The position numbers and the translations under genes were made by a program. The notes below the pieces were generated by a model. The model saw only the letters and a list, made by a program, of their open reading frames with translations, did no database searches and had not been told where the DNA came from. 64,000 nucleotides of DNA, taken from the human T2T-CHM13v2.0 reference genome, Homo sapiens. The stretch lies in NCBI RefSeq assembly GCF_009914755.1, contig NC_060932.1; one strand, written 5' to 3'. Positions 2,328-21,219 of the stretch are shown piece after piece; the stretch's first letter is position 1; each line of letters starts with the position of its first letter.

Positions 2328-3279
2328 AATAATGATTTTCATTATATTTTAGACCTGCTTGTAAGCCTTTACTGTCAATTAAGATGAGGTAAAAATCCAC
2401 TTTAAATTGAAAACGTGCAAAATTGGTGATTTCTATTATGAAAAGTATCTGTTATAAAATTATATGTGATTCTTACAATCCTATTTAATCACATACACCT
2501 TATAGTTATTTATAATATGTGAAATATATGCCAAACTATACCTTATTATTTCAATGACACATATTAGTCATAATTCAAAGGGACAGGCATCCCCTCAAGT
2601 CTTATAGAAATAAGGATTTTGCATATAAAGATGCATATGTACACAGGTTAAACATCTTTGCCAAGCATTTTTGCATAGAAACAACTATCTAGTACTTTGT
2701 AAATAATATTGCATCATTTTACTTTATATATGTTTCCTTTTTTTTGCCTAGCATTTATGAAATGGCAAAATTTTAAAGCAAGGAAATAATTATTTGCATA
2801 AACTAAAACTCAAAACATACACTTATCAATTTAATACTAATAGAAAAGTAGTAACAAATTATCATTAAAATTTTGTAAATTAATACCGATGCTTAAATAA
2901 GTATAGCCAAATTTCCTCCACCTGCTTTACATGCTGAAAAGCACTAACTCCCTTGAGAGGCCTGTAACTAATTTACCCAACAAATATTTTTTGTATCGAT
3001 TCACAAACAATTTGTCTTTACATATTTTAAATTTGTCTTTAATAGTTTAAAAGCTTACAGATTTGACGGTGAACACAGGAACATTTGTCTTTTTAAAAAG
3101 AACACTTTCCCTCTTTAATAGCTGGAGCATCATGTTGTTTAGAGATAAACATAACAATTTTAATTTTTCCATAGAGCAATTTTTATACTAGGTTCACAAG
3201 TTTCATGGCATTGTATTTTTATAATATTCGAATGCTGTAACTTAAAATAGTTTTTAAAAGAGGAAAAGATAAATCTTTT
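2328..3279 (+). repeat. Left arm of a ~950-bp long inverted repeat (partner 20267-21219)
   Basis: Colinear by hand with the reverse complement of 20267-21219. Perfect blocks include 2415-2453 = rc(21092-21130), 39 bp, and 3115-3152 = rc(20394-20431), 38 bp. Confidence 0.97.
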
Positions 3280-4824
3280 AGATTATAAAATACAGCATCT
3301 AACTGCAAAGTTGGAAATCTCCCCTAAGCTGATTTATGGAAAAGGTAAGTTTATCTTGAGGTGCACAGTCTATTACATAGGGCTATGCATACTGAGAAAA
3401 GACGTTCATCAATGGACATTGTATGAGGCTTTGTTAGCATTATAATATTTTGGAACATTGGATGTAAAGTAACTTTAATGGGTTTTCCTAGCAGATTTTT
3501 GCTTGCAACTTTGTACTTGGCTTTAAGATGATTATTTAGGCATTAATGAATGCTTACAAACAGCCAATTTCTTTTCTCCTTTGAAATACCAAAAACACAT
3601 GGAGTATAATGAATGTCTAGATTGTAACCCACGTTATTCCACATACAGAAAAGGATATCAAATAGTGATCTCAGATAGTGTTCCATTGTTTTTATATACT
3701 GTGGGAAAAAATATGACTTAAACTCAGTAATTTGTAATTATAAATCACACTTCCAAATGAAAATGTTTTAATTTTATTTTTAGTTTTTCAGTTGTATAGA
3801 TAAAATATGGTCTTTTATTAATAACAACTTATGTTTTATATTTTAGAATTTGCTAAAATTCAATATAATAAAACTCAATTTAGAAAAATTCAATCTTCTT
3901 GCATTCTTTTAATTCTCCATTTTAAACAGCTTTTGTAATCCAGGTTAGATAAACTCATTTGATATATAGTTACTTAGTTCCTATTTTGTTAAAGGCATGC
4001 AGAAAAATAATTGCTAACTAGAAATTTTACTAATTCTTTAAAAAATTATATTAGCTTAGCAAAAAAATTAGAAAGTTTCATGATTCAATTCAAAAGAAGA
4101 AAACCACATTAATGGCATCCATGAGTTTTTCACTTATTTTAGAATCAAAATATATTGTGGTTATGACTTAATACTTAAAATGATACTGAAACATATTAGC
4201 ATTGAAATTTTCTCAGAGTAAACCAGTGTTATTGCCTGTGAATAATGTTGTGATTTCAGGTATAAGAAGAATATGATATGACACAGACCATCTGAGCCTA
4301 ACCTTTCTTGACTCATCCTTGCCAAAAAAAAAAAAAAAAAAAAAGTCAGGAAAACACAGAAGCTGCTTTTAAAAATCTTTTTAGTCACAATTTACCCTCC
4401 CGCTAAGCTCATCTTTTAAAATAATAGTTTCTACATCTTATTTTTGTTTTTATGTCATCTCAGCATTTTGTATTGCATAGCTTTGTCTACCTGCTTTTGA
4501 CAAAAAAACAATTGAGAGGGATCGTTAATGGATTTACTCATACACAAATAGTACTAATGATTTGTATTTGAAAAATAATTTGAATTAGTCACAAAACTTA
4601 AATGTCATTATTCTTTAAAAAAGAATGGAGACAAAAGGCAAGAGATGTTCTAATTGATAATTACAATTACATTAAACTTTGTTTATGGACAGGAACAGGA
4701 AAAAATATAAAACATAAAAGCGGATGCAAGTTTGGTAGAAGCTTGGGTAAAGTTTGTGCTTAATTTGGATTAAAAATTATATTTATGTAATAAAACATCT
4801 TACCAACATTAAAACAAACAAATA

Positions 4825-5118
4825 GGCTGGGCACGGTGGCTCACGCCTGTAATCCCACCGCTTTGGGAGCTTAAGGTGGATGGATCTCTTGAGGCCAGGA
4901 GTTCAAGACCAGCCTGGCCAACATGGTGAAACCCTGTCTCTACTAAAAATACAAAAACTAGTCAGGTGTGGTGCCTCTGTAATCCCAGCTACTTGGGAGG
5001 CTGAGGCAGGAGAATCACTTGAACCCAGGAGGCAGAGGCTGCAGTGAGCAGAGATTGTGCCACTGCACTCCAGCCTGGGTGACAGAGTGAGACTCTGTCT
5101 CAAAACAAAAACAACAAA
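4825..5118 (+). mobile_element. Alu (AluS/J-type) SINE
   Basis: Starts GGCTGGGCACGGTGGCTCACGCCTGTAATCCC; two monomers and an A-rich tail. Confidence 0.97.
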
Positions 5119-5194
5119 CGAAATGTCAGTTTTAGTATTGTCAAACATTTAAACTCTAACAATTCATAAAGGCTTGTCTTTTAAATTTTCCTTA

Positions 5195-19100: not shown

Positions 19101-19918
19101 CACAAAAAATAACTTTGGCATGGGAGAGAAACTTCAATTGAAGGGTCAGAGTTGATTCAGTATATGCCTGGTTCATCCTCTGAATCCCAAGAACAGATTA
19201 TTCACCAAAGTGAGTCTTACAAAATTCCACTTTTTATTTATGTCATGAATAGCTGGTTATGAGAAGAAAGTGGAATAGGTTGGGGAAAAGAAAATGAAGA
19301 GGAAGGTTTCTACTTTCATAAAGCAAATATCCTGCATATGAAGCAAAGACATCCAAAGAAATTTGTATTGGGTCATTCCGGAAGGGAATTCTAAATGGCT
19401 TAGCTTCTCCAGGATGCAAACTTATGTGTTACATGCTTGCCTAATTACCATTTAAGGGAGTTTCTGGAAATAGAGTGTTAGCACAATTTAAAGGAGTTTA
19501 TTTTTTTCCTTACATATAAATCTTATCAAATAATGTATTTCACCGATTTTTTGAAAAATTTTTAAAAGTTACATATTGCTAAATATACATATATACACTT
19601 TTTTTCCTGTTGTTGGGGTTTGAGGATTGATAGTGGGGTGCAAAGCTAAATGGAAAAAGATCCTAAGTTAAGCTTCTACACTCAGCTTCAGTGGGATATG
19701 TGTTCTGTTTTTATTGTAATTGTAACATTATTATAAAGCTGTAAAATTAAGGGTTTTTTTTTTTAAATTTTTCAAGTCTATAATTGGATGCTTAACAGAA
19801 AAAAGTGATTTCAAGTCCGGTATTCCTGTTTGCATGTAAATAAAGCCCTAGTCACAAACAAAGCCAGCAACCTCACATACTTGCCTTCAGTGGTAAAGGA
19901 TGGAGAGCCTGCCTGCTA

Positions 19919-19946
19919 CCAATCAGCAAGTGGTTGCTATGGTTAC
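19919..19946. promoter_or_regulatory. Adjacent NF-Y CCAAT/Y-box (CCAATCAG) and RFX X-box (GTTGCTATGGTTAC)
   Basis: CCAATCAG at 19919-19926; 19933-19946 closely resembles the RFX palindrome GTTGCCATGGCAAC. Lies in apparently non-repetitive, locally GC-richer sequence. Function is inferred only. Confidence 0.45.
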
Positions 19947-20266
19947 AAGGTCAGGAAATATGCCTTTTCCCCAGTTGTCCAAGGCTTGCACATGTCACTT
20001 TTGAAACTATGGATTTTATATACAGGTCAGGAGATGCATACCAAAGAAATAAACAGTGAACTGGACCATAATGACAGCTAACTTTCAAATGTCCTCGGAT
20101 TTTTTACATATCTAGGCAAACACATTTTGTTATTTTGAATGGACTGGGTTTTGTTTGTTTGTTTGTTTTAAATATTTTTTGAACAATTTTTTGTCTAATA
20201 AAATTTTATGTGTTAGCTTGAAATTGTGTTCCTGTATTGTAAGCTTACATCAATAACATATTTCAG

Positions 20267-21219
20267 AAAAGATTTATCTTTTCCCCTTTTAAAAACGATT
20301 TTAAATTGCAGCATTGGAATATTATAAAAATATAATGCCATGGGACTTGTGAACCTAGTATAAAAATTGCCCTATAGAAAAATTAAAATTGTCATGTTTA
20401 TCTCTAAACAACATGATGCTCCAGCTATTAATGAGGTAGTGTTCTTTTTAAAAAGATAAATGTTTCTGTGTTCACAGTCAAATGTGTAAGCTTTTAAAAT
20501 ATCTAACAAATTATGAAAAATTAATCTTGTTTGTAAATCAATAAAAAAAAATTGTTGGGTAAATTAGTTACAGACCTCGCAACAGAATTAGTGCTTTGCA
20601 GCATATAAATCAGATTGAAGAAATTTGATATTTAAGCATTGGTATTATTTTTAAAAAGTTAATGACAATTTGATACTATTCTGTTAGTATTAAATTGATA
20701 TTTATATTAAAAATATTAAATGTATGTTTTGAGTTTTTTATGGAAATAATTATTTCCTTGCTTTAACATTTGTGCCATTTCATAAATGCTAAGCAAAAAA
20801 AAATGAAGAAAATGCATGTAAAGTAAAATGATGTAATATTATTTACAAAGTGCTAGATAGTTGTTTCTATGCAAAAGTGCTTTGCAAAAATGCCTTACCT
20901 GTGTAAATATGCATCTTCATATGCAAAATCCTTATTTCTATGAGACTTGAGGGGATTCCTGTCCATTTGAAATATGACAAATATGTGTCATTAAGATAAT
21001 AAGGTATAGCTTGGCATATATTTCACATATTATGAATAATTCTCAGGTATATGTGATTAAATAGGATTATAAGAATCACATAGAACTTTACAACAGATAC
21101 TTTTCATAATAGAAATCACCAATTTTGCACATTTTTTCAATTTAAAGTGGATTTTTACATTGTATTAATTGACAATAAAAGCTTAAAAATAGGCATAAAG
21201 TATAATGAAAATCATTATT
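20267..21219 (-). repeat. Right arm of the ~950-bp long inverted repeat (partner 2328-3279)
   Basis: Reverse complement aligns end to end with 2328-3279, with roughly 3-11 substitutions per 60 bp and a few indels (largest ~18 bp, near 20701-20720). Confidence 0.97.

What the first reader, a model, noticed from the sequence alone, without database searches (positions are those of the whole stretch)
2328..21219. Apparently unique ~950-bp inverted repeat bracketing a 17-kb segment
Seen: 2328-3279 is the reverse complement of 20267-21219, about 85-88% identical by hand, with perfect 38-39 bp blocks and a sharp inner end. The arms resemble no Alu, L1, LTR or DNA-transposon family I recognise. The spacer contains MIR, L2 and MLT1 copies, families that predate primates, so the arms look younger than the DNA they enclose or have been homogenised. 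Inferred alternatives: (a) the duplication scar of an old primate inversion made by staggered breaks; (b) an ancient pair kept similar by gene conversion that lets the 17-kb segment flip repeatedly, as known for the FLNA-EMD inverted repeats; (c) a long-range RNA stem in a host pre-mRNA that loops out or circularises the enclosed exons, or feeds ADAR/Dicer. A rough hand count of transitions gave about 22 compatible with G-U pairing in a plus-strand RNA and about 34 in a minus-strand RNA, which does not decide the question.
Basis: partly seen in the sequence, partly recalled or inferred. Interest (0 to 1): 0.85.

Follow-up and report, generated by a model that had tools for sequence, protein, structure and literature searches.

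The report
Old two-copy inverted duplication, neutral relic
A 950-base stretch of a human chromosome 8 gene desert was copied once, tens of millions of years ago, and now sits in reverse orientation 17 kb from its twin; it looks like an ordinary scar of DNA-break repair with no sign of a present function.

Summary
Arms 2328-3279 and 20267-21219 are reverse complements: 826 matches, 100 mismatches and 53 gap columns (89.2% over aligned bases, 84.4% with gaps, K2P 0.118). Both ends are sharp, and the T2T genome holds exactly two copies. The arms are not a dispersed repeat. They carry no Rfam family, and the 18.9-kb unit has no Pfam-recognisable coding remnant. Differences look neutral: the perfect 38-39 bp blocks fit random placement (p=0.17), G-U-compatible transitions show no excess on either strand (24 vs 37, p=0.12), and there are 12 indels. 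This gives no support for recent gene conversion or a selected RNA stem. At this identity the pair falls below segmental-duplication thresholds and is a poor recombination substrate. A 10-bp direct repeat (TTAGATTATA, 2311-2320 and 3278-3287; p about 0.004-0.01) brackets the left arm only, with a 7-nt filler. I therefore favour a copy of the right arm pasted into a staggered break, with the spacer never inverted. A staggered-break inversion scar is the main rival, and only outgroup genomes, not available here, can decide. Ordinary; low interest.

The parts
2328..3279 (+). Left arm of the inverted repeat; favoured reading: the derived (pasted-in) copy
   Evidence: Alignment to the reverse complement of 20267-21219: 826/926 aligned bases identical, 12 indel events. 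GC 26.9%. Only two copies in the genome.
20267..21219 (-). Right arm of the inverted repeat; favoured reading: the source copy, in its original context
   Evidence: Same alignment. No flanking direct repeat: the best is 6 bp, which is typical of chance. A 181-base query across its outer end finds only the two arms genome-wide.
3280..20266 (.). 16,987-bp spacer, mostly single-copy DNA
   Evidence: Own-genome searches find other copies only for about 4802-5128 (Alu-like, 10,640 first-look candidates), 8450-8658 (2,707 candidates), 10263-10376 (matches its own reverse complement) and 14219-14367 (4 weak hits). No stop-to-stop frame exceeds 120 aa. 62 of 68 frames of 55 aa or more were scanned and gave 0 Pfam hits.
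2311..2320 (+). Left copy of the 10-bp direct repeat TTAGATTATA (putative target-site duplication)
   Evidence: Longest direct repeat between the two junctions of the left arm. Chance P(>=10) is 0.0055 for random positions with the same spacing, 0.004 for random 33-mers and 0.010 for an AT-matched null.
3278..3287 (+). Right copy of the 10-bp direct repeat; its first two bases (TT) are also the last two bases of arm homology (2-bp microhomology)
2321..2327 (+). 7-nt filler (GATCATT) between the left repeat copy and the first homologous base; 6 of its bases are the reverse complement of arm bases 2331-2336 (snap-back-like)
   Evidence: Not homologous to the right arm's flank. A 6-nt inverted match within the next 20 nt occurs at 1.7% of random positions.
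2298..2313 (+). A-rich run just outside the left arm that resembles the run outside the right arm (reverse complement of 21229-21244); ambiguous: chance, or a remnant of longer homology
   Evidence: Local alignment score 10 (12 columns, 11 identical). P=0.0125 against random 30-mer pairs. nhmmer extends the arm match to 2309/21228.

Best explanation
A neutral relic of one ancient local rearrangement. About 950 bp of single-copy DNA, the present right arm, was copied and pasted in reverse orientation into a break 17 kb away. This created the left arm, a 10-bp duplication of the target (TTAGATTATA) and a 7-nt filler at one junction. The spacer was never inverted. Both copies have since drifted apart neutrally. 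With K2P 0.118 and rates of 1.0-2.2e-9 per site per year, the event dates to about 27-59 Myr ago, in early anthropoid or catarrhine ancestors. Shown: the two-copy inverted duplication, its sharp ends, its neutral-looking divergence and the flanking direct repeat. Inferred: that the direct repeat is a target-site duplication, which arm is the copy, the repair pathway (end joining at a staggered break, or replicative template switching) and the date. The pair has no evident present function and is a poor substrate for homologous flipping.
For: Exactly two copies exist genome-wide. Three of the four flanks are single-copy. The fourth flank is an older, complete mariner-like element that ends 40 bp before the arm. 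A 10-bp direct repeat brackets the left arm only: P=0.0055, 0.004 and 0.010 under three nulls, against a best of 6 bp for the right arm. No other junction pair shows a direct repeat longer than 5 bp. The filler is 7 nt with a 6-nt snap-back match (1.7% by chance), and the other junction has 2-bp microhomology. Such end-joining marks are described for patch insertions at breaks (PMC5110952, passages read). Divergence looks neutral: transition/transversion 61/39 and 12 indel events per 100 substitutions. The longest perfect block of 39 bp is not unusual (p=0.17). There is no RNA family, no protein-domain remnant and no other non-Alu duplicate in the window.
Against: The direct repeat is short and AT-only. 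With 12 junction comparisons its corrected significance is only about 0.05. An A-run similarity just outside both outer ends (P=0.0125) overlaps the left repeat copy. If it is real homology, it would argue that the arm is longer and the 'target duplication' spurious. There is no poly(A) tail and no clean L1 endonuclease site, so the source of a 10-nt staggered break is unexplained. No outgroup genome could be examined, so the ancestral orientation of the spacer is unknown. The strand-skew comparison was uninformative (spacer -0.004, right flank -0.048, noisy).
Confidence: 0.55

Rival explanations
1. Scar of an old inversion made by staggered breaks. One breakpoint was cut about 950 bp apart on the two strands. 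Fill-in duplicated that stretch, and the 17-kb segment was re-joined upside down, leaving the duplicate in inverted orientation at both ends.
For: The architecture fits exactly: a single-copy stretch duplicated in inverted orientation at the two ends of a segment, sharp ends, and no transposon features. The mechanism is documented for Drosophila inversions (PMC1885836, search listing and start of abstract only). The A-run similarity outside the outer ends (P=0.0125) could mean the homology once ran further than the putative target duplication allows.
Against: It does not predict a 10-bp direct repeat around one arm (P about 0.004-0.01) or the 7-nt filler. A second staggered break would give a short inverted repeat between the 3280 flank and the 21220 flank, and the best there is 5 bp. 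The skew test gave no sign of a flipped segment but has little power.
Confidence: 0.27
2. An older inverted pair kept similar by gene conversion that lets the 17-kb segment flip recurrently by homologous recombination, as at FLNA-EMD.
For: Inverted arms 17 kb apart are the right geometry. Divergence is mildly uneven along the arm: 10.4%, 14.5% and 7.5% in three segments, p=0.045.
Against: Identity is only 89% over aligned bases. The longest perfect tract is 39 bp and is no longer than random placement of the differences gives (p=0.17). Validated human inversion-mediating repeats in PMC3961182 (passages read) are kilobases long, and the one pair whose identity I read is 94% on average with a 782-bp tract at 99.9%. 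Candidate catalogues use at least 90% identity (PMC13629690, passages read). From recalled literature, efficient mammalian homologous recombination needs well over 100 bp of perfect match.
Confidence: 0.04
3. A long-range RNA stem: both arms are transcribed in one RNA and pair, looping out the spacer or feeding editing or dicing enzymes.
For: If co-transcribed, 826 of 979 columns would pair, with perfect runs up to 39 bp.
Against: No gene is annotated anywhere in the window (hub annotation). No Rfam family is found in 1-24000. G-U-compatible transitions are 24 (plus strand) and 37 (minus strand) of 100 mismatches, not different from each other (p=0.12) and near the neutral share. Twelve indels of up to 18 nt interrupt the stem. 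Expression, editing and duplex-capture data could not be consulted.
Confidence: 0.03
4. The arms belong to a mobile element: either two copies of a very low-copy family, or the terminal inverted repeats of one 18.9-kb giant transposon (Polinton/Maverick-like).
For: Long terminal inverted repeats and a total length near 19 kb resemble giant DNA transposons (recalled features).
Against: Only two copies exist in the genome. There is no direct repeat across the outer ends of the whole unit: best 5 bp in flanks, and 7 bp partly inside an arm. The arms have no terminal inverted repeats, LTR-like ends or poly(A) tail of their own. 0 of 62 scanned open frames hit any Pfam family and the longest frame is 120 aa. 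The spacer is mostly single-copy DNA.
Confidence: 0.03

Closest known systems
Dispersed inverted duplication or templated 'patch' insertion at a DNA break (templated sequence insertions, Onozawa and Aplan, PMC5110952; template-switch models such as MMBIR, recalled)
   Same: A single-copy stretch is copied, not moved. At the insertion junctions there is filler at one end, 2-bp microhomology at the other, and a short duplication of the target.
   Different: It mixes features of the two described classes. It has a target duplication (class 1) but no poly(A) tail, polyadenylation signal or clean TTTT/A site. It has end-joining marks (class 2), which are described as lacking target duplications. 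The donor lies only 17 kb away on the same chromosome, and the event is fixed and tens of millions of years old, not polymorphic.
Inversions flanked by inverted duplications from staggered breaks (Ranz et al. 2007, PMC1885836)
   Same: Inverted duplicates of formerly single-copy DNA at both ends of a segment, with no transposon involved.
   Different: Inversion of the spacer is not shown here, and the direct repeat around one arm is not predicted by that model.
FLNA-EMD inverted repeats and the repeat pairs that mediate human polymorphic inversions (PMC3961182)
   Same: Inverted arms separated by a spacer of tens of kilobases.
   Different: The pairs tabulated in the passages I read of PMC3961182 have arms of 2.8-24 kb. 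The one pair whose identity I read is 94% on average with a 782-bp tract at 99.9%. These arms are 0.95 kb and 89% identical with at most 39 bp of perfect match. FLNA-EMD figures are recalled, not checked.
Segmental duplications as catalogued for the human genome (at least 1 kb and 90% identity, as stated in PMC13629690)
   Same: A low-copy duplication of non-repeat DNA.
   Different: It falls just under both thresholds, so it would be absent from that track and from candidate lists built on it.

Membership tests
Catalogued segmental duplication | Length at least 1 kb | tested here: not met
   Arms are 952 and 953 bp. The loosest blastn extension is 978/975 bp.
Catalogued segmental duplication | At least 90% identity | tested here: not met
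   89.2% over aligned bases and 84.4% with gap columns.
Catalogued segmental duplication | Not made of high-copy interspersed repeats | tested here: met
   Two copies genome-wide.
Recombination-competent inverted repeats of recurrent inversions | High identity with long perfect tracts | tested here: not met
   The longest perfect block is 39 bp, consistent with random placement of differences (p=0.17).
Recombination-competent inverted repeats of recurrent inversions | Both orientations of the spacer seen among individuals or species | not testable with these tools
   No other human assemblies or primate genomes are held. Porubsky 2022 is not held and the macaque Strand-seq tables are unreadable.
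Staggered-break inversion with inverted duplication | Inverted duplicate of single-copy DNA at both ends of the segment | tested here: met
Staggered-break inversion with inverted duplication | Spacer inverted relative to the single-copy ancestral state | not testable with these tools
   No outgroup genomes. The skew comparison is uninformative.
L1-mediated (class 1) templated insertion or retrocopy | Target-site duplication of at least 5 bp | tested here: met
   A 10-bp direct repeat around the left arm.
L1-mediated (class 1) templated insertion or retrocopy | Poly(A) tail inside the duplication, preceded by a polyadenylation signal | tested here: not met
   Neither end of the left arm, on either strand, has an A-run inside the direct repeats.
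L1-mediated (class 1) templated insertion or retrocopy | Insertion at a 5'-TTTT/A-3' site | tested here: inconclusive
   My reading of the junctions: the nick positions implied by the repeat give TATA/AA on one strand. A TTTT/A reading is possible on the other strand only if the repeat is shortened to 9 bp, and it is in the wrong place relative to the insert.
Break-patch (class 2) templated insertion | End-joining marks: filler nucleotides, microhomology | tested here: met
   A 7-nt filler at 2321-2327 and 2-bp microhomology at 3278-3279.
Break-patch (class 2) templated insertion | No target-site duplication | tested here: not met
   A 10-bp direct repeat is present.
Transposable element family / giant transposon | Multiple dispersed copies, own termini, target duplication of the whole unit, coding remnants | tested here: not met
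   Two copies only. No direct repeat across the outer ends. 0 of 62 frames hit Pfam.

The most novel reading that the evidence does not exclude
The pair is not inert. An unannotated transcript spans both arms, so that they form a roughly 950-bp imperfect double-stranded RNA, or the arms still mediate rare flips of the 17-kb segment next to an annotated enhancer. Either would make this a regulated switch in the 8q21 gene desert.
Probability: 0.04. Interest if true: 0.55.

Novelty: new member of a known kind. Interest (0 to 1): 0.15.

Why it matters
It matters little by itself. It is a clean, dated example of a sub-threshold inverted duplication (just under 1 kb and 90% identity), so duplication tracks and the inversion-candidate lists built on them would miss it. 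If the target-duplication reading holds, it is a fixed germline example of a nearby, inverted, copy-and-paste break repair with mixed junction features. It would also be a usable presence/absence marker for early anthropoid branching. It does not look like a functional element.

Tried and rejected
2. Ancient-repeat continuity across the four junctions, to tell ancestral from novel joins. Own-genome searches of the flanks found only unique DNA, apart from the mariner-like element at 1480-2287 and a CT-rich low-complexity patch at about 21269-21329. nhmmer of four junction-centred 1-kb segments against the window found only the partner arm. No repeat-consensus library is available, so MIR/L2/MLT1 could be neither confirmed nor used.
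3. Strand-skew test for a flipped spacer: noisy and uninformative.
4. Giant-transposon idea: no Pfam hit in 62 of 68 stop-to-stop frames of 55 aa or more. The six dropped frames overlap Alu-like masked stretches at about 4853-5148, 8221-8388 and 12769-13260.
5. RNA genes: no Rfam match at gathering score in 1-24000.
6. Retrocopy or orphan L1 transduction: rejected for lack of a poly(A) tail.
7. Known inversion at this locus. Aguado 2014 (PMC3961182, passages) lists only 8p loci on chromosome 8. PMC13629690 (passages) has no 'chr8' in its main text and its supplements are not held. Porubsky 2022 is not held. The macaque Strand-seq supplement is too large to read. So I cannot say whether any catalogue lists this site.
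8. The NCBI-masked stretch 21121-21252 that crosses the outer end of the right arm has no other genomic copies beyond the partner arm, so it gives no junction evidence.
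Full report
**Observation.**
- The repeat finder lists a collinear series of inverted blocks from 2328-2413/21134-21219 to 3092-3279/20267-20454 at 84-94% complementarity.
- blastn of 1800-3800 against the whole window gives a single non-self hit: 2302-3279 against 21241-20267, 84.4% over 1005 columns.
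- A MAFFT pair alignment restricted to 2328-3279 has 979 columns: 826 matches, 100 mismatches (61 transitions, 39 transversions) and 53 gap columns in 12 events, the largest 18 nt. That is 89.2% identity over aligned bases, 84.4% counting gaps, and a Kimura distance of 0.1175.
- The perfect blocks of 39 and 38 bp exist, starting at 2415 and 3115.
- Identity drops to noise immediately beyond 3279/20267 and beyond 2328/21219.
- The arms are AT-rich (GC 26.9% and 25.2%) and almost free of CpG.

**Copy number.**
- The window's own genome (T2T-CHM13, 3.1 Gb) holds the arm twice and only twice at the sensitivity of the search: 2 first-look candidates and 2 matches.
- A 181-base query across the outer end of the right arm, a stretch NCBI soft-masks, also finds just the two arms, even at E up to 10.
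- Within the window, the pair is the only duplicate that is not an Alu-sized (about 300 bp) family member or a small local repeat (46 non-self pairs listed).

**Surroundings.**
- The left flank holds an older interspersed element at 1480-2287. It has TA at both ends, 22-nt terminal inverted repeats, at least 2,737 first-look candidates genome-wide, and 74-77% identity to the copies scored. From memory it looks like a mariner-type element, but no tool named it. It is complete and ends 40 bp before the arm, so it is not part of the repeat.
- The other three flanks (3280-4300, 19250-20266, 21220-22250) are single-copy, apart from a CT-rich low-complexity patch at about 21269-21329.
- The spacer is mostly single-copy. 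Only about 4802-5128 (Alu-like), 8450-8658, a local palindrome at 10263-10376 and a weak old repeat at 14219-14367 have other copies.
- No Rfam family reaches its gathering score in 1-24000.
- The longest stop-to-stop frame in 2000-21600 is 120 aa. Of 68 frames of 55 aa or more, 62 were scanned and none hit Pfam at E up to 0.01. The six left out overlap Alu-like stretches.
- The 18.9-kb unit is therefore not a decayed giant transposon, and the arms have no termini, LTR-like ends or poly(A) tail of their own.

**How the arms have evolved.**
- The pattern is what neutral drift gives: transition/transversion 61/39, and 12 indel events against 100 substitutions.
- Substitution divergence is 10.4%, 14.5% and 7.5% in 2328-2770, 2771-3050 and 3051-3279. 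This is mildly heterogeneous (p=0.045), and most gap columns (43 of 53) fall in the middle part.
- The 39-bp perfect block is not longer than expected when the 153 differing columns are placed at random (p=0.17). The perfect blocks are therefore no sign of homogenisation.
- Transitions compatible with G-U pairing number 24 for a plus-strand RNA and 37 for a minus-strand RNA out of 100 mismatches. These do not differ from each other (p=0.12) and are about the neutral share.
- Nothing in the sequence therefore argues for recent gene conversion or for selection on pairing.
- With 0.059 substitutions per site on each copy, and rates of 1.0-2.2e-9 per site per year (my assumption from general knowledge), the duplication dates to roughly 27-59 Myr ago. 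Arms younger than the old repeats in the spacer is what any duplication produces.

**Which rearrangement.** Two models give the present order.
- An inversion by staggered breaks predicts one ancestral and one novel junction per arm, and no short direct repeats.
- A copy pasted into a break predicts two novel junctions around one arm, possibly with a duplicated target.

I compared all junction flanks.
- The left arm is bracketed by a 10-bp direct repeat, TTAGATTATA, at 2311-2320 and 3278-3287.
- No other pair of junction flanks has a direct repeat above 5 bp. With wider ±30-bp windows that reach into the arm, the right arm's best is 6 bp.
- The chance of 10 bp or more is 0.0055 for random positions at the same spacing, 0.004 for random 33-mers and 0.010 with AT-matched flanks.
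- Between the left repeat copy and the first homologous base lie 7 nt (GATCATT) that are absent at the right arm. Six of them are the reverse complement of arm bases three positions further on. Only 1.7% of random positions show this snap-back-like pattern.
- At the other junction, the last two arm bases are also the first two bases of the repeat.
- Target duplication, filler and microhomology together are what is described for sequence patches inserted at breaks (PMC5110952, passages read). This case mixes the two published classes and lacks a poly(A) tail.
- I therefore favour this reading: the right arm is the source, the left arm is a pasted copy, and the spacer was never inverted.

**Evidence against that preference.**
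- The repeat is short and AT-only. Corrected for the 12 comparisons, it is only about p=0.05.
- Just outside both outer ends there is an A-rich run that aligns (11 of 12, P=0.0125; nhmmer extends to 2309/21228). If that is true homology, the arm originally reached past the left repeat copy, and the 'target duplication' would be a coincidence.
- A second staggered break in the inversion model would leave a short inverted repeat between the 3280 and 21220 flanks. The best there is 5 bp.
- A strand-skew comparison (spacer -0.004, right flank -0.048) is too noisy to help.
- Weighing these, I give the paste-in reading about 0.55 and the inversion scar about 0.27. Both are neutral scars of one old event.

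**What it does now.**
- Most likely nothing.
- At 89% identity and at most 39 bp of perfect match, the arms are far from the repeats that mediate known human inversions. The pairs tabulated in the passages I read of PMC3961182 have arms of 2.8-24 kb. The one pair whose identity I read is 94% on average, with a 782-bp tract at 99.9%.
- The arms also fall just under the 1-kb and 90% thresholds used for duplication tracks and for inversion-candidate lists (PMC13629690, passages). This probably explains why the pair looks undescribed.
- I could not check any inversion catalogue for this site, so I make no claim that it is absent from print.
- No gene is annotated in the window (hub annotation), so a host pre-mRNA for an RNA stem is lacking. 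Expression and editing data were not available.

**Verdict.** Outgroup genomes would settle paste-in versus inversion in one alignment.

Noticed in passing
window 1480-2287: A complete, old DNA-transposon-like element: TA at both ends, 22-nt terminal inverted repeats (73% complementary), at least 2,737 first-look candidates in the genome, and 74-77% identity to the 40 scored copies. It has an internal deletion relative to some copies. From memory it looks mariner-type; no tool named it.
   Followed up: partly
window 10263-10376: An AT-rich near-perfect palindrome inside the spacer with 46-nt arms 80% complementary and 22 nt apart. Folded as single-stranded DNA it gives -31.5 kcal/mol, z-score -8.5 against shuffles. 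In the genome search it matched only its own reverse complement.
   Followed up: partly
window 32119-32183 and 34892-34956: A 65-bp direct repeat at 95% identity, 2.7 kb apart, outside the finding (self-blast).
   Followed up: no
window 42644-42741 and 42767-42866: Adjacent tandem copies of about 100 bp at 95% identity inside a stretch NCBI masks (42610-42986).
   Followed up: no
window 21269-21329: A CT-rich low-complexity patch just right of the right arm. It is the only part of that flank with other genomic matches (15 short hits, 82-94%). It lies inside the RefSeq 'enhancer' feature 21152-21747, which also overlaps the last 68 bp of the right arm.
   Followed up: no
window 8450-8658: Part of a high-copy repeat (2,707 first-look candidates, 80-87% identity to scored copies) continuing from the masked stretch 8124-8442. 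The family was not identified.
   Followed up: no
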